From a virus (taxonomy: Duplodnaviria > Heunggongvirae > Uroviricota > Caudoviricetes), in the IMG/VR virus record IMGVR_UViG_3300028591_000080, positions 159,745-223,744 of that record: a DNA stretch of 64,000 nt; one strand, given 5' to 3'. The position numbers were made by a program, and so were the translations under genes. Position 1 is the stretch's first letter. Each line of letters starts with the position of its first letter. A model generated the notes under the pieces. That model was not told where the DNA came from, searched no databases, and saw only the letters and a program-made list of their open reading frames with translations. Shown here one piece after another: positions 4,836 to 63,126 of this stretch.

Positions 4836-5255
4836 TTATTCACTCGCTAATTCTCTATATGTATATCTATAAACTCCTGAGATTTCAAAGTATTCCTCTA
4901 ATGCACTATCTATCTCATCGTCAATAAGATCTCCAGATTTTAAATTTAGTTCAAATTCAAGAACTTGGTTTTCTACTTTACGTTGTAATTCCTCTTTTTC
5001 TGCTTCTGTATCATATTCGAAGAATGAAGGTTCTACGCTAATATTTCCAACTTGAACTTTAACTTTTCTTTCTTTAATCTCAGTAGTTATATCTGTCATG
5101 TCCATCTGTTTAATTATTGCACCTTCAGAAATTAGTTCTTCTAAAGTCATCTTATGTAATTTTTCTTTTGCCTCTTCTACCGAATTCGCCTCGATTTGAA
5201 GATTGCGAACCCACATTTCTAAATTAAAATCAAATTCTACTATCATAATTTCCAA
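4836..5255 (-). CDS. hypothetical acidic protein (139 aa)
   Basis: ORF; minus-strand terminator hairpin gcgagt/actcgc plus T-run at 4812-4834 immediately after it. Confidence 0.5.
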   Translation of the reverse strand: MEIMIVEFDFNLEMWVRNLQIEANSVEEAKEKLHKMTLEELISEGAIIKQMDMTDITTEIKERKVKVQVGNISVEPSFFEYDTEAEKEELQRKVENQVLEFELNLKSGDLIDDEIDSALEEYFEISGVYRYTYRELASE

Positions 5256-5261
5256 ATCTCC

Positions 5262-5471
5262 TTATTTCTCTTCATCATAACTAAATACACCACCACAATA
5301 CTCATATTGTTCTGTGTTAGTGTTAAATTCCAGTTTTTCAACCCAAGTTTTATCTCCTATATTTTCTTTTGCATATTTAATTGCTCTTTGCTTAGATCCA
5401 CGTCCTGTAAACTCACAACCTACGTTATTTTCGTCTACATCACTATGGACTGCATAAATAATTTGTTTCAT
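5262..5471 (-). CDS. hypothetical protein (69 aa)
   Basis: ORF. Confidence 0.45.
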   Translation of the reverse strand: MKQIIYAVHSDVDENNVGCEFTGRGSKQRAIKYAKENIGDKTWVEKLEFNTNTEQYEYCGGVFSYDEEK

Positions 5472-45227: not shown

Positions 45228-45318
45228 GATTTATTCTCCTTAGTCATTTATTTTAGCAAATTATAAATAGTCATTTTGACTATTATATTATACAATAAAA
45301 AATAGAATTTTTCGAATT

Positions 45319-58538: not shown

Positions 58539-58567
58539 AATATCACGTCCTTTTTAATTACAATTTA

Positions 58568-59509
58568 TTATACAATAAAATCTTCTTTTTTATAGCCATT
58601 TTTATAAAACCAATCTAAATATTTCTGATAGTCTGACTCAGTTAAAATTTTAACATTATTATTTATTGCACACCAGTATTTCGCTTCTACTAGACCAGAA
58701 TTTTCTGCATCGAATGGATTATACCAAACTCCATGCTCATTAATAAAACATTTGCCTTTTATCTCAACCAACTGGCCTTTAATACTAAAGTCTGGGTAAT
58801 ATTCATGAGTGACTCCATCATAATAATAAATCAATTTTATAGGTTCACGTATAATTTCTATATTATTTTTTATACAATATAAATATAAACATAACTCAGG
58901 AAAAGAATCAAATGATATATTTTTATAATTAAATTTATTTGATAGTCCGTGTCGTACACCATAGCGTAATTCCATAGTATCAAAAGCTTTAGTTTTAAAA
59001 ATATCTAATTCAAATGGATGAGATACGCCATATTTAGTTTGCATGCCACCCTCCCTAAATTCAGCCAACTTAAGTGGATTATCAACACCATATTTTTTAA
59101 TACAAGTATTTTTATATGATTCTTTATAAGTATCCGTTTTAGAATAATGTGTTACACCAAAATGTTCTAAATAAGTTTTTTCTTTTGTAAGTTTGACTAT
59201 CTCTGCTTTTGATGGGTTATCTACACCATACTTTTTAATATTTGATTCTTTTATTTTTTGTTTTATAGTATCAGCTGCAAAAGCGTTAGTTACTCCATAT
59301 TTTTTTAAACAAGTCTGTATATAAGCTTGCTTATACAATATTTTATTTTCTTCATTAGTATGTCTTGAAATATTATACTTTTGTAAAACTCTTAAGATTC
59401 TTGGGATGAAATGACAATTAAAATGAGTACCAGTATTGCTATCAGTATGAGTTTTATAATATTCGATTATTTCTAATTCTTCTTGCTCAGTAAATTCTTT
59501 TCTAGCCAT
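58568..59509 (-). CDS. tandem-repeat (KKYGVxNP x6) protein with C-terminal PD-(D/E)xK nuclease-like domain (homing-endonuclease-like)
   Basis: Six roughly 30-aa modules (CLKKYGVTNAF, NIKKYGVDNPS, LEHFGVTHYS, CIKKYGVDNPL, QTKYGVSHPF, ELRYGVRHGL); C-terminal HEYYPDF...LVEIKG resembles the nuclease domain of 48758..49546. Confidence 0.5.
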   Translation of the reverse strand: MARKEFTEQEELEIIEYYKTHTDSNTGTHFNCHFIPRILRVLQKYNISRHTNEENKILYKQAYIQTCLKKYGVTNAFAADTIKQKIKESNIKKYGVDNPSKAEIVKLTKEKTYLEHFGVTHYSKTDTYKESYKNTCIKKYGVDNPLKLAEFREGGMQTKYGVSHPFELDIFKTKAFDTMELRYGVRHGLSNKFNYKNISFDSFPELCLYLYCIKNNIEIIREPIKLIYYYDGVTHEYYPDFSIKGQLVEIKGKCFINEHGVWYNPFDAENSGLVEAKYWCAINNNVKILTESDYQKYLDWFYKNGYKKEDFIV

Positions 59510-59566
59510 GTCGTGTTCTCCTTAAAAATAAAAGGTTAGATGAGAACACGACTAATCATCTAACCT
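59510..59566 (-). promoter_or_regulatory. 5' leader hairpin/terminator with loop complementarity to the downstream SD region (pseudoknot or attenuator) for 58568..59509
   Basis: Stem aggttagatga/tcatctaacct plus U-run; loop gtcgtgttc(tc) is the exact reverse complement of gagaacacgac, which overlaps the AAGGAG RBS. Confidence 0.5.
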
Positions 59567-59689
59567 TGTATATAAAAATATCCGAAGATATAATTACTTA
59601 ATATTATACAATTTATTTTTGCCGTGTTCTATATAGTCTTTCAACTACATATAATTTAGCAGATCATTTTTTAATATTTTTTTAATTTT

Positions 59690-60268
59690 TTAATGTTTTT
59701 TCTTACCATCAAGTAGAGCATACACAGAAGAATTATTATATTTATATTGTCCATTTAACTCTTGATCTACTTTAATTAGCCCTTTTTTAACATAAGCACA
59801 TAAGGTAGGTCTAGTAATATGTAATATTTCCATTACTTCCTCTGCTTTTAAACTTCTATTATAGTAATATTTTATTGCATTATTCATATTTATCCTATCA
59901 CAAGAATTTACTGTGTTACTTGATGCTAGATCAACTTCATGCATGAATTGATTTAGTTGATTTTCAAATTCAATTTTATTTTCTATTGTCTCTGGTTGAT
60001 ATAATGCATACCAAAAATTTACTGTAAAATAACCAGCATATACATTATTACATCTACCACATCCGCTAGGAACATTTATATAATCTTCATCCGCAATTAT
60101 TTCACCTTTGTCTTGTCTTTCTTTTATTTTTAAACAGTATTCATAAATACCATTATAGCCAGACTCTGATGCAGGTCTACGTCCGAATCTAGCATAATAG
60201 TCATTCATGACTTTTTCTAATGCAACCGTTTTGGGGTAATTTAAATTTAATTTTTCTGATAAATTCAT
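59690..60268 (-). CDS. DNA-binding protein with C-terminal MerR/AlpA-type helix-turn-helix
   Basis: VMEILHITRPTLCAYVKKGLIKV helix-turn-helix, similar to 34706..35077. Confidence 0.45.
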   Translation of the reverse strand: MNLSEKLNLNYPKTVALEKVMNDYYARFGRRPASESGYNGIYEYCLKIKERQDKGEIIADEDYINVPSGCGRCNNVYAGYFTVNFWYALYQPETIENKIEFENQLNQFMHEVDLASSNTVNSCDRINMNNAIKYYYNRSLKAEEVMEILHITRPTLCAYVKKGLIKVDQELNGQYKYNNSSVYALLDGKKKH

Positions 60269-62966: not shown

Positions 62967-63126
62967 ATAAAAAAATCACTCCTTAATTGTACCATGTTTA
63001 TTTTACATTATATTATACAATTAAAAGTGATTATTTTTTAATATTTTTTTAATTTTTTAATATTTTATTTTCGGCCACCATCTAGTTTATAGTTCTAGAA
63101 AACTTTACTTTATATTATACAATATA

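What the first reader, a model, noticed from the sequence alone, without database searches (positions are those of the whole stretch)
59510..59610. Leader of the nuclease-like gene 58568..59509: promoter, then terminator-like hairpin whose loop is exactly complementary to the SD region
On the minus strand a TTGTATAATA promoter is followed by an 11-bp-stem hairpin (aggttagatga/tcatctaacct) and a U-run, immediately before AAGGAGAACACGACATG. The hairpin loop plus two stem nucleotides (gtcgtgttctc) is the perfect reverse complement of gagaacacgac in the ribosome-binding region. That permits an H-type pseudoknot or an alternative pairing that occludes the RBS, on top of attenuation by the hairpin. 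The gene product carries a PD-(D/E)xK nuclease-like domain, so tight or auto-regulated expression makes sense. The TGA codons in the other endonuclease-like genes point to the same theme of throttling selfish nucleases.
Basis: seen in the sequence. Interest (0 to 1): 0.65.

Follow-up and report, generated by a model that had tools for sequence, protein, structure and literature searches.

The report
Structured RNA leader throttling a phage nuclease
The 150 bases ahead of a phage homing-endonuclease gene form a near-invariant, structured RNA leader: a terminator hairpin whose loop can pair with the gene's ribosome-binding region or with an upstream decoy copy. It is a new variant of the known ways phages keep selfish nucleases quiet.

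Summary
On the minus strand a TTGTATAAT promoter box (59611-59603) is followed by a UUCG hairpin and a 12-bp hairpin plus U-run (59567-59524). The 11 nt GTCGTGTTCTC (59552-59542: 9 loop nt plus 2 stem nt) are the perfect complement of GAGAACACGAC (59520-59510), which lies between the SD and the ATG.

It is not chance. It is the longest RBS complement among 82 genes in the window. The whole leader is 97-99% identical in three other phage contigs whose nuclease genes share only 45-50% aa identity.

- A second, recurrent promoter box (TGCTAAATTA, 59661-59652).
- A third copy of the motif upstream (AGAACACGGC, 59630-59621) that can also pair with the loop.
- A wider leader family, absent from Rfam, in which the terminator loop pairs with a 5' hairpin loop. 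This pairing is backed by clear covariation (7 pairs, 100% paired, 4 compensatory).

Best reading: this is an attenuator/translational switch for a free-standing PD-(D/E)xK homing endonuclease. The terminator loop acts as a pairing hub.

Main weakness: loop-SD pairing itself has no covariation support, and in nested folding it is only about 2.4 kcal/mol better than the terminator.

Verdict: a new variant of a known kind; moderate to high interest.

The parts
59652..59661 (-). P1: promoter-like box TGCTAAATTA (TGn + TAAATT, extended -10 type). The implied start is near 59646.
   Evidence: This recurrent intergenic motif has 8 copies on the coding strand, usually 6-30 nt before an SD. It is conserved at the 5' edge of every long leader of the family. 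The start site is inferred, not mapped.
59630..59653 (-). H1: weak 5' hairpin TATATGTAG / CTATATA. It aligns with the TAGATA-N7-TATCTA hairpin of relatives.
   Evidence: Alignment A2 and folds. In relatives its loop pairs with the terminator loop. In the window type that role has moved to X.
59621..59630 (-). X: AGAACACGGC. It is an upstream near-copy of the SD-ATG spacer and is complementary to the terminator loop (10 bp including one G.U).
   Evidence: The X/X' duplex is -15.7 kcal/mol. In a transcript starting at P1 and paused just after X', the X:X' pairing has P = 1.0. At the U-run, X:X' has P 0.34 against T 0.66. X lies upstream of P2, so it is absent from P2 transcripts.
59603..59611 (-). 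The implied start is near 59596.
   Evidence: There are 14 exact copies on the coding strand, nearly all intergenic. A -10-like box is kept at this position in all related leaders.
59578..59591 (-). H2: small hairpin AUAUC-UUCG-GAUAU.
   Evidence: Relatives keep a small hairpin here with different stems and stable tetraloops (GAAA, GUAA, UUAC). 3 of 4 pairs show compensatory change.
59524..59567 (-). T (H3): terminator-like hairpin with a 12-bp stem (59567-59556 / 59543-59532), a 12-nt loop (59555-59544) and the U-run UUAUUUUU (59531-59524).
   Evidence: -14.5 kcal/mol. P = 0.999 at the U-run in a P2 transcript. The homologous hairpins of relatives are called terminator-like by the scan. The stems covary: 8 of 10 pairs and 6 of 13 pairs.
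59542..59552 (-). X': GUCGUGUUCUC (9 loop nt plus the first 2 nt of the 3' arm). This is the pairing hub, complementary to both X2 and X.
59510..59523 (-). SD AAGGAG (59523-59518) overlapping X2 GAGAACACGAC (59520-59510), immediately before ATG 59509.
   Evidence: The X':X2 helix is -16.9 kcal/mol as a hairpin and -18.7 as a duplex. It has P 0.86-0.96 in full-length RNA. In L396 the terminal C is U, which keeps a G.U pair.
58568..59509 (-). Gene for a 313-aa DUF7487 protein: N-terminal helical region, KYGV-type repeats and a C-terminal PD-(D/E)xK-like nuclease. It is a presumed free-standing homing endonuclease.
   Evidence: Pfam PF24308, E 6.5e-26. Invariant FDSFPE..Y.PDF..E.KG. PHROG homing endonuclease. 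AF2 pLDDT 89.6 with weak fold hits to Bax1, I-Bth0305I and other PD-(D/E)xK nucleases. It sits next to an RNA ligase gene in five independent contig lineages.
58567..58575 (-). P2-type promoter box TTGTATAAT overlapping the nuclease stop codon, 37 nt before the RNA ligase start (58538).
   Evidence: L004 has the same arrangement. It is inferred to keep the downstream ligase expressed despite the attenuator.
59536..59559 (-). Possible mini-ORF AUG AUU AGU CGU GUU CUC AUC UAA inside the hairpin. Listed for completeness; probably incidental.
   Evidence: Read from the sequence. An AUG at this place is present in L393, L392 and L010 but absent in L149, L150 and L004. The SD-like AAGG is only 4 nt from the AUG.

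Best explanation
The segment 59662-59510 (minus strand) is a dedicated, structured mRNA leader. It keeps expression of a free-standing PD-(D/E)xK homing-endonuclease gene low and conditional.

Proposed mechanism:
1. Two promoter boxes feed the leader: P1 (TGCTAAATTA) and, 50 nt downstream, P2 (TTGTATAAT).
2. Both are followed by an intrinsic-terminator-like hairpin T. Most transcripts, and nearly all P2 transcripts, should stop there. This step is attenuation.
3. The loop of T (X') is a pairing hub. In read-through RNA it pairs with the 11 nt between the SD and the AUG (X2). It does so either instead of T or together with T as an H-type pseudoknot. This occludes the ribosome-binding site.
4. 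Longer transcripts from P1 or from upstream also carry X, a near-copy of X2. X emerges first and can occupy X' before the 3' arm of T is made. That would weaken termination and leave the SD free.
5. The outcome would therefore depend on which promoter made the RNA.
6. A promoter at the 3' end of the nuclease gene restarts transcription for the RNA ligase gene downstream.

Shown: the sequences, the energies, the conservation, and the covariation of the stems and of the upstream:loop pairing in relatives.

Inferred: the start sites, actual termination, the pseudoknot, RBS occlusion in vivo, and the decoy role of X.
For: Anatomy and coordinates.

Energetics:
- T is -14.5 and S (X':X2) is -16.9 kcal/mol.
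- S has P 0.86-0.96 in full-length RNA, while T has P 0.999 at the U-run in a P2 transcript.
- In a P1 transcript, X:X' has P 1.0 when the polymerase has just made X', and 0.34 against T 0.66 at the U-run.
- Shuffling the loop lowers the cost of opening the RBS by about 2 kcal/mol.

Not chance.

Both promoter boxes are recurrent intergenic motifs of this phage. Elsewhere in the window the order is terminator then TTGTATAAT. Here it is reversed.

Conservation: the leader is 96.7-99.3% identical in L144, L146 and L396. In the same contigs the nuclease CDS is 68-69% identical (45-50% aa), the ligase CDS is 81-85% identical, and ligase four-fold sites are 60-85% identical. The boundaries are sharp at P1 and at the ATG.

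Family:
- A covariance model built without the window sequence finds 59507-59662 as the only hit in the window, E 1e-6.
- In relatives the terminator-loop:5'-hairpin-loop helix is 100% paired with 4 of 7 pairs compensatory, with 0 of 500 shuffles as good. Shifted registers are only 28-39% paired.
- Seven lineages carry seven different loop sequences, six of them with clear upstream complements (L004's is weak); Fisher p 6.5e-8.
- UUCG and GNRA tetraloops in H2, and G.U pairs, fit the sense-strand RNA.

Precedent: RBS-sequestering hairpins, terminators and dedicated promoters regulate T4-type homing endonucleases (PMC2988022; PMC2677866). A kissing loop with a terminator hairpin acts as an antiterminator in the guanidine-IV riboswitch (PMC11611296).
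Against: - The loop-SD helix has no covariation support. All four window-type leaders are identical there except for a terminal C-to-U that gives a G.U pair.
- The closest divergent relative, L004, keeps X and X2 alike, but its loop pairs with the H1 loop and not with the SD.
- More distant relatives have no loop-SD complementarity.
- In the nested model, S is only about 2.4 kcal/mol better than T. Opening the RBS costs 4.4-5.2 kcal/mol, about the median for genes in this window.
- X:X' is a minority state at equilibrium, 0.10 in full-length RNA.
- In read-through RNA from upstream, the model gives T 0.999 and X:X' 0.0 at the U-run.
- Pseudoknot energetics, start sites and termination were not measured.
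- The timing class of P1 and P2 is unknown. The genes behind P1 boxes have no known function.
Confidence: 0.55

Rival explanations
1. Trans-acting small RNA. P2 plus T make an abundant RNA of about 72 nt (H2, an AU-rich linker and the terminator hairpin). Its exposed loop X' pairs in trans with X2 (the RBS) and/or with X or the H1 loop of the long mRNA. It would act like a sense-encoded antitoxin or counter-transcript that silences the nuclease mRNA or forces its termination.
For: - A real-looking promoter box is conserved between the two complementary segments in every leader.
- P2 transcripts are predicted to terminate almost completely at T.
- The product has the classic small-RNA shape, with the complementary bases presented in a loop.
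- Loop-loop complementarity with covariation is what antisense systems use.
Against: - The same complementarity works in cis, and the cis partner is always nearer.
- There is no expression data.
- Relatives lack any loop-RBS complementarity, so a trans RBS block cannot be the general function.
Confidence: 0.15
2. By-product. Selection acts on the upstream:loop pairing (X:X'), the family-wide feature. Because X and X2 are a direct repeat kept for another reason, the loop is automatically complementary to the SD spacer. The loop-SD pairing would have no regulatory role of its own.
For: - Only the upstream:loop pairing covaries across the family.
- L004 keeps X and X2 alike without loop complementarity to either.
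- The predicted RBS opening cost is ordinary.
Against: - X' matches X2 better (11 of 11 Watson-Crick, -18.7 kcal/mol) than it matches X (10 bp with a G.U, -15.7).
- S is the predicted dominant state of full-length RNA, so it would affect translation whether or not it was 'intended'.
- X2 is invariant in four diverged phages.
Confidence: 0.15
3. DNA-level operator sites. X, X' and X2 are three copies, two direct and one inverted, of a 10-bp site bound by a protein. The protein could be the nuclease's own N-terminal helix-turn-helix-like region, giving autorepression as in I-TevI. Alternatively it could be the HTH protein encoded just upstream (59690-60268).
For: - Three copies of a 10-mer lie within 120 bp. 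One overlaps the -35 region of P2 and one overlaps the start codon.
- X and X2 co-vary in L004 with no RNA partner in the loop.
- Precedent: I-TevI binds an operator in its own promoter (PMC2988022).
- There is a weak HTH-like hit for residues 3-50 and an HTH_17/MerR-like C-terminus in the upstream gene.
Against: - In relatives the complementary segments are seven different sequences sitting in hairpin loops. They change by compensatory substitution, as expected for RNA pairing and not for a protein site.
- The G.U pair works only in the sense RNA.
- No copy of the motif occurs in the adjacent ligase genes, so there is no homing-site mimicry.
- Window-type leaders are identical although the nucleases are only 45-50% identical.
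Confidence: 0.08
4. Leader-peptide coupling. The 7-codon mini-ORF inside the hairpin (59559-59536, MISRVLI) is translated. The ribosome would melt X':X2 and expose the nuclease SD, as in ermC-type translational attenuation or coupling.
For: - The mini-ORF runs exactly across X' and ends 10 nt before the SD.
- Its AUG lies in arm A, which is single-stranded when S forms.
Against: - The AUG is absent in L149, L150 and L004.
- The SD-like AAGG is only 4 nt from the AUG.
- The peptide is not conserved.
Confidence: 0.04
5. An ordinary intergenic terminator of the upstream gene with chance complementarity.
For: The hairpin plus U-run lies downstream of gene 59690-60268, and no other terminator follows that gene.
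Against: - Two promoter boxes lie upstream of the hairpin, not downstream.
- In L010 a separate terminator ends the upstream gene before the leader starts.
- The chance tests argue against it.
- The leader is near-invariant next to different upstream genes.
Confidence: 0.03

Closest known systems
RBS-sequestering hairpins and terminators that regulate T4-type homing endonuclease genes (I-TevI, I-TevII, I-TevIII, segB, Aeh1 mobE; review PMC2988022), and conserved 5'-UTR hairpins of Vsr-like and GIY-YIG free-standing endonucleases (PMC2677866)
   Same: - The gene is a phage free-standing nuclease between conserved genes.
- A stable RNA structure covers the SD region.
- A terminator limits transcripts.
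- Dedicated promoters are present.
- A promoter restores expression of the downstream host gene.
   Different: - In the T4 cases a late promoter fires inside the inhibitory hairpin, so the late RNA lacks its 5' arm. Here no promoter box lies between X' and X2.
- Here the anti-SD sits in the loop of a terminator.
- The proposed relief comes from an upstream decoy (X) that only the longer RNA carries.
- The family-wide feature is a loop-loop pairing across an internal promoter.
Guanidine-IV (mepA) riboswitch: a kissing loop between a 5' hairpin and the terminator hairpin acts as antiterminator (PMC11611296)
   Same: An intramolecular loop-loop pairing involves the loop of an intrinsic terminator upstream of the regulated gene. 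The decision is made co-transcriptionally.
   Different: - There is no Rfam match to that family or to any other.
- There is no sign of a ligand pocket.
- The complementary loops differ freely in sequence between lineages.
- An internal promoter lies between the partners.
- The window type adds a second partner at the RBS.
Antisense-RNA attenuation and type I toxin-antitoxin control (counter-transcripts that kiss a target loop)
   Same: The complementary bases are presented in hairpin loops. The target is a potentially toxic gene. The outcome is termination and/or an RBS block.
   Different: Both partners are encoded on the same strand, so the complementarity had to evolve and is kept by covariation. 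Trans action is not shown.
H-type pseudoknots that occlude an RBS (for example in autoregulated phage and ribosomal-protein mRNAs; from general knowledge)
   Same: A hairpin loop pairs with a downstream single strand at the SD/AUG.
   Different: Here stem 1 is a 12-bp terminator stem. The linkers are 3 nt and 11-13 nt for a second stem of 9-11 bp. Feasibility was judged only by rule of thumb and was not computed.

Membership tests
T4-type hairpin-regulated homing endonuclease genes | A stable RNA structure pairs the SD/start region. | tested here: met
   The X':X2 helix has 11 bp and -16.9 kcal/mol, with P 0.86-0.96 in full-length RNA. However, the net cost to open the RBS is only 4.4-5.2 kcal/mol.
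T4-type hairpin-regulated homing endonuclease genes | A (late) promoter initiates inside the inhibitory structure, so its transcript lacks the 5' arm. | tested here: not met
   Both recurrent promoter boxes (59661-59652 and 59611-59603) lie upstream of X'. No box of either class lies between 59542 and 59520.
T4-type hairpin-regulated homing endonuclease genes | The regulated gene is a mobile (homing) endonuclease. | tested here: inconclusive
   - Pfam DUF7487, an invariant PD..ExK motif, PHROG 'homing endonuclease' and weak PD-(D/E)xK fold hits.
- It is always beside an RNA ligase gene, with varying upstream neighbours.
- L004 shows a displaced duplicate of the ligase 5' end.
- Cleavage and homing were not tested.
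Intrinsic terminator / transcription attenuator | A stable hairpin is immediately followed by a U-tract and lies between promoter and gene. | tested here: met
   The stem is 12 bp (-14.5 kcal/mol) and is followed by UUUUAUUUUU. The homologous hairpins in L010 and L393 are listed.
Intrinsic terminator / transcription attenuator | Transcripts actually end at the U-tract, and the fraction is regulated. | not testable with these tools
   This needs 3'-end mapping or in vitro transcription.
Guanidine-IV-like kissing-loop antiterminator | A 5' hairpin loop is complementary to the terminator loop and is maintained in evolution. | tested here: met
   In relatives: 7 pairs, 100% paired, 4 compensatory, and 0 of 500 shuffles as good. 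In the window the equivalent is X:X', 10 bp with one G.U.
Guanidine-IV-like kissing-loop antiterminator | A match to the family's conserved sequence and structure (Rfam model). | tested here: not met
   There is no relevant Rfam hit at E <= 10 in the window leader or at E <= 1 in seven related loci.
H-type pseudoknot at the RBS | Both stems can coexist sterically and are energetically favoured. | tested here: inconclusive
   The topology has L1 = 3 nt and L3 = 11-13 nt. The 9-bp in-loop duplex is -12.7 kcal/mol. No pseudoknot-capable folding tool was available.
Leader-peptide (ermC-type) attenuation | A conserved short ORF with its own RBS overlaps the switching segment. | tested here: not met
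   The mini-ORF is present in the window, but its AUG is absent in L149, L150 and L004. The SD spacing is poor.
Leader family defined here (model R1) | The architecture is P1 box, 5' hairpin, -10 box, small hairpin, terminator hairpin whose loop pairs upstream, then SD. | tested here: met
   Model R1, built without the window sequence, hits 59507-59662 full length with E 1e-6. It is the only hit in the window.

The most novel reading that the evidence does not exclude
The leader is a self-contained two-RNA device. The internal promoter P2 and terminator T make a short, abundant sense-strand RNA. Its terminator loop acts in trans on the long nuclease mRNA, at the RBS (X2) and at the 5' decoy or hairpin (X/H1). 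This would set a threshold for nuclease expression, like a sense-encoded type I antitoxin for selfish nucleases. The same module is used in front of both homing endonucleases and TnpB in TGA-recoded T4-like phages.
Probability: 0.15. Interest if true: 0.8.

Novelty: new variant of a known kind. Interest (0 to 1): 0.6.

Why it matters
Phage homing endonucleases must be expressed enough to spread, but not so much that they harm the phage that carries them. A handful of T4 examples show this is done with RNA hairpins, terminators and timed promoters.

This is a different solution, and it appears to be under very strong selection: about 150 nt stay nearly invariant while the nuclease itself diverges to below 50% identity. 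The loop of an attenuator terminator is the switch point. It can pair with the ribosome-binding site or with an upstream partner.

The same leader family precedes a TnpB gene. It may therefore be a portable 'safety catch' for selfish nucleases in a poorly known clade of large, TGA-recoded phages.

It is a clean, small system for testing three things:
- Promoter-dependent RNA folding.
- Loop-mediated antitermination without a ligand.
- Whether leader-derived short RNAs act in trans.

Tried and rejected
- **Rfam.** Nothing relevant was found for the window leader or for seven related loci.
- **GenBank phage records.** Only weak hits to Lak megaphages, and these fall inside the nuclease repeats.
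- **Pattern scans of public collections with promoter-box patterns.** These returned 360 loci. Almost all were chance matches in AT-rich DNA. Only 2 had a DUF7487 gene, and one further real leader (L271) emerged via the covariance model.
- **Viral-contig scan for the window-type stem with any loop.** No hits. No window-type variant with a changed loop could be found, so covariation of the loop-SD helix could not be tested.
- **Group I intron idea for L004.** Rejected. The ligase gene restarts intact about 30 nt after the nuclease gene, and the upstream ligase piece is a duplicate.
- **Operator resembling a homing site.** The motif is absent from the adjacent ligase genes.
- **Assigning P1 to a timing class from the genes it precedes.** Failed. 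Those genes have no known function.
- **X:X' base-pair probability.** My first calculation used coordinates that were off by 4 nt. It was corrected.
- **Sequence search of solved structures.** Only marginal hits: T7 endonuclease I at E 0.4 and an HTH at E 0.75.
Full report
**1. The observation**

| Element | Sequence | Coordinates |
|---|---|---|
| Promoter box (P2) | TTGTATAAT | 59611-59603 |
| Small hairpin (H2) | ATATC-TTCG-GATAT | 59591-59578 |
| Hairpin T, 5' arm | AAGGTTAGATGA | 59567-59556 |
| Hairpin T, loop | TTAGTCGTGTTC (12 nt) | 59555-59544 |
| Hairpin T, 3' arm | TCATCTAACCTT | 59543-59532 |
| U-run | TTATTTTT | 59531-59524 |
| SD | AAGGAG | 59523-59518 |
| Start codon | ATG | 59509 |

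- GTCGTGTTCTC (X', 59552-59542) is the exact reverse complement of GAGAACACGAC (X2, 59520-59510).
- The 11-mer is unique in the window even with one mismatch.
- Among 82 gene starts, this is the longest complement between an RBS region and its upstream 130 nt. It is also the only long one that is not an A/T run. Only 4 of 20,000 shuffles reach 11.

**2. Energetics**

- As hairpins, T is -14.5 kcal/mol and the X':X2 helix (S) is -16.9 kcal/mol.
- The minimum-energy fold of the leader uses S.
- In full-length RNA, S has probability 0.86-0.96 and T has 0.02-0.03.
- T and S share only two nucleotides, so they could coexist as an H-type pseudoknot with linkers of 3 nt and 11-13 nt. I could not compute this.

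There is an important caveat. When S opens, T re-forms. The net cost of exposing SD..AUG in the nested model is therefore only 4.4-5.2 kcal/mol. Loop-shuffled mutants cost 2.4-3.5 kcal/mol, and the median for all genes in the window is 5.0. The two states are nearly iso-energetic, which is what a switch looks like. In that model, however, the occlusion is not extreme.

**3.

- **Two promoter classes.** The phage has two recurrent promoter-like motifs on its coding strand.
  - TTGTATAAT (P2 class) has 14 exact copies, almost all intergenic and usually just after a terminator.
  - TGCTAAATTA (P1 class) has 8 copies, usually 6-30 nt before an SD.
  - The leader has both: P1 at 59661-59652 and P2 at 59611-59603.
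  - Only here does the terminator follow the TTGTATAAT box rather than precede it.
- **A third motif copy.** Between the two promoters lies AGAACACGGC (X, 59630-59621).
  - X can pair with X' over 10 bp including one G.U. The X/X' duplex is -15.7 kcal/mol, against -18.7 for X2/X'.
  - X is present only in RNA that starts at P1 or further upstream.
  - In a P1 transcript paused just after X', X:X' has probability 1.0. At the U-run it still holds 0.34 against 0.66 for T.
  - In a P2 transcript, T has probability 0.999.
- **A promoter for the next gene.** A P2-class box overlaps the stop codon of the nuclease gene (58575-58567), 37 nt before the RNA ligase start.

**4. The gene**

- The product is a DUF7487 protein.
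- Its relatives share an invariant FDSFPE...Y.PDF...E.KG signature.
- It matches PHROG homing-endonuclease families.
- The AlphaFold model is confident (pLDDT 89.6). Its fold matches are weak but enriched for PD-(D/E)xK nucleases: Bax1, I-Bth0305I, I-Ssp6803I and Vsr-like proteins.
- In five independent contig lineages it sits beside an RNA ligase gene, directly upstream in the window and in L004, L144 and L146/L396, while the upstream neighbours differ.
- L004 shows a footprint of homing. An AT-rich cassette (leader, nuclease and the first ~100 ligase codons) sits in a GC-richer ligase gene, and a displaced duplicate of the ligase 5' end lies upstream.

**5. Conservation**

The leaders of L144/L145, L146-L148 and L396 are 96.7-99.3% identical to window 59662-59510.

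| Region, compared with the window | Identity |
|---|---|
| Leader (nt) | 96.7-99.3% |
| Nuclease CDS (nt) | 68-69% |
| Nuclease protein (aa) | 45-50% |
| Ligase CDS (nt) | 81-85% |
| Ligase four-fold degenerate sites | 60-85% |

- Identity collapses immediately upstream of P1 and immediately after the ATG.
- The few variable sites are an H1 loop base, the length of an A-run, the exact -10 hexamer of P2, one U-run base, and the last base of X2. That last change is C to U in L396 and keeps a G.U pair with X'.
- This points to strong purifying selection on the whole leader. For the same reason, it gives no covariation test of X':X2.

**6. The wider family**

More distant DUF7487 genes have leaders with the same order of parts: L010, L393, L149, L150/L395, L392, L131 and L004.

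- In all of them the loop of the terminator hairpin is complementary to the loop of a 5' hairpin just after P1. The sequences differ between lineages:

| Lineage | 5' hairpin loop | Terminator loop |
|---|---|---|
| L010, L393 | CCGAACC | GGTTCGG |
| L149 | CTGGTAC | GTACCAG |
| L150, L395 | CTGATCC | GGATCAG |
| L392 | CTGACCC | GGGTCAG |
| L131 | ATTAGGGCT | AGCCCTAAT |
| L004 | GUGAUAAA | UUUGUCAC |

- On a six-sequence alignment this helix is 100% paired, with 4 of 7 pairs changed on both sides and 0 of 500 shuffles as good. Shifted registers are only 28-39% paired. The terminator stem (6 of 13 pairs) and the small hairpin (3 of 4 pairs) also covary.
- A loop-shuffle test over seven lineages gives a combined p of 6.5e-8.
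- The terminator hairpins of L010 and L393 are called terminator-like by the scan. L010 has a separate terminator for its upstream gene.
- A covariance model built only from these relatives finds the window leader full length (E 1e-6) as its only hit in the 64 kb.
- The model also finds a new member, L271, upstream of a TnpB gene. Its loop GCUGCAA pairs with upstream UUGCAGC.
- No Rfam family matches any of these leaders.
- None of these more distant leaders has loop-SD complementarity.
- Some leaders (L132, L133) sequester the SD in a different way, with an upstream ACUCC segment.

**7. Best explanation**

The leader is a cis-acting RNA device for a selfish nuclease.

- T attenuates transcription from both promoters, and almost completely from P2.
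- The loop of T is a hub. Pairing with X2 blocks the RBS in RNA that does read through.
- Pairing with the upstream partner is available only in the longer RNA, and it is available before T is complete. The partner is X here and the H1 loop in relatives. This pairing should reduce termination and, in the window type, keep X' away from the SD.
- The window type therefore looks like an elaboration of an ancestral 'kissing-loop attenuator', in which the loop gained a second target at the RBS.

Shown: the parts, the energetics, the conservation, and the covariation of the stems and of the upstream:loop pairing. Inferred: the start sites, termination, the pseudoknot, the decoy action of X, and the in vivo effect on translation.

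I give the overall model 0.55. That the leader is a functional structured RNA regulator I rate at about 0.8. That the loop-SD pairing itself represses translation I rate at about 0.55.

**8. Rivals**

- **Trans-acting small RNA.** The P2-to-T unit may be a 72-nt RNA that acts in trans through its loop.
- **By-product.** The loop-SD match may follow from loop-X pairing plus an X/X2 repeat that is kept for another reason.
- **DNA operators.** X, X' and X2 may be protein-binding sites, as in I-TevI autorepression (PMC2988022). Three points argue against this: the free covariation of loop sequences, the G.U pair, and the absence of the motif in the ligase genes.
- **Leader peptide.** A 7-codon mini-ORF lies across X', but it is not conserved.
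- **Plain terminator with chance complementarity.** This is effectively excluded.

**9. An unexplained point**

X and X2 co-vary between the window type (AGAACACG-G/A-C) and L004 (AAATCGCG-G/A-C), and both keep the same G/A difference. Yet in L004 the loop does not pair with them. Something else keeps them alike there. Possibilities are direct X:X2 pairing through the palindromic UCGCGA, a trans factor, or gene conversion.

**10. Comparison with what is known, and verdict**

- Regulation of phage homing endonucleases by RBS hairpins, terminators and dedicated promoters is established (PMC2988022). Conserved 5'-UTR hairpins have been noted for Vsr-like free-standing endonucleases (PMC2677866).
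- This case works like those, but it fails the defining T4 feature of a promoter firing inside the inhibitory hairpin.
- A kissing loop with a terminator hairpin is known from the guanidine-IV riboswitch (PMC11611296). Here there is no match to that family and no sign of a ligand site.
- I classify it as a new variant of a known kind. It is an undescribed leader family with a terminator-loop pairing hub, and the window carries its most elaborate form.
- The finding is real and conserved.

Noticed in passing
window 49546-48758, 47435-46626, 23480-22998, 22922-21927 (minus strand); L004 ~5269-5271; L150/L151/L395 codon 3 of the DUF7487 gene: Several window genes carry in-frame TGA codons that read well as Trp. 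One is GIY-YIG-like (23480-22998, 4 TGA). Another is PD-(D/E)xK-like (49546-48758, 1 TGA). In L004 a TGA in the ligase gene aligns with a Trp of the window ligase. Relatives start their nuclease genes ATGGGTTGA. The clade seems to use partial TGA=Trp recoding. No tRNA gene is in the window.
   Followed up: partly
L004 3514-3740 versus 4972-5271: A GC-richer partial duplicate of the RNA ligase 5' end, carrying an in-frame TAG, lies upstream of the AT-rich cassette. The cassette comprises the leader, the nuclease and the first ~100 ligase codons. This looks like a footprint of homing with co-conversion.
   Followed up: partly
window, coding (minus) strand: TTGTATAAT at 63122, 63020, 59611, 58575, 53062, 45295, 39533, 37610, 35689, 34702, 32834, 27197, 15723, 7856; TGCTAAATTA-like at 59661, 49583, 47466, 45258, 34677, 34044, 28596, 23820: There are two distinct, recurrent intergenic promoter-like consensus motifs. 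At 45295/45258 and 34702/34677 they occur in tandem in the order P2 then P1, the reverse of the nuclease leader. Their timing classes are unknown.
   Followed up: partly
window 58567-58575: A TTGTATAAT box overlaps the nuclease stop codon, 37 nt before the RNA ligase ATG. The cassette apparently supplies a promoter for the gene it sits in front of. L004 has the same arrangement.
   Followed up: partly
L271 1335-1476 (minus strand) and ORFs 474-1337, 243-458: The same leader architecture, with the upstream:loop complement UUGCAGC/GCUGCAA, precedes a TnpB gene (OrfB_IS605 plus the Cas12f1-like TNB domain). The leader is therefore not restricted to DUF7487 nucleases.
   Followed up: partly
window 59630-59621 and 59519-59510; L004 3883-3892 and 3991-4000: The direct repeat X/X2 co-varies between the two lineages and keeps the same G/A difference. 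In L004 it has no complementary partner in the terminator loop. This is unexplained.
   Followed up: partly
L150 1-303 and 1501-2661; L394 1-613 and 601-1743; L392 601-1914 and 2489-2514: Several related phage contigs carry two DUF7487 genes close together or in tandem. One of them is next to a Gp23-type major capsid gene, so these are T4-like phages rich in this nuclease family.
   Followed up: no
L132/L143/L244 and L133/L138 leaders: A shorter leader type sequesters the SD differently. An upstream AUACUCC or ACUCCA segment pairs with AGGAGUAU or UGGAGU across an internal hairpin, with compensatory differences between the two subtypes.
   Followed up: no
window 59690-60268: The gene upstream of the leader encodes a 192-aa protein with a C-terminal HTH_17/MerR- or excisionase-like helix-turn-helix. 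Both hits fall below the Pfam cut-offs. It is a possible DNA-binding regulator next to the cassette.
   Followed up: no
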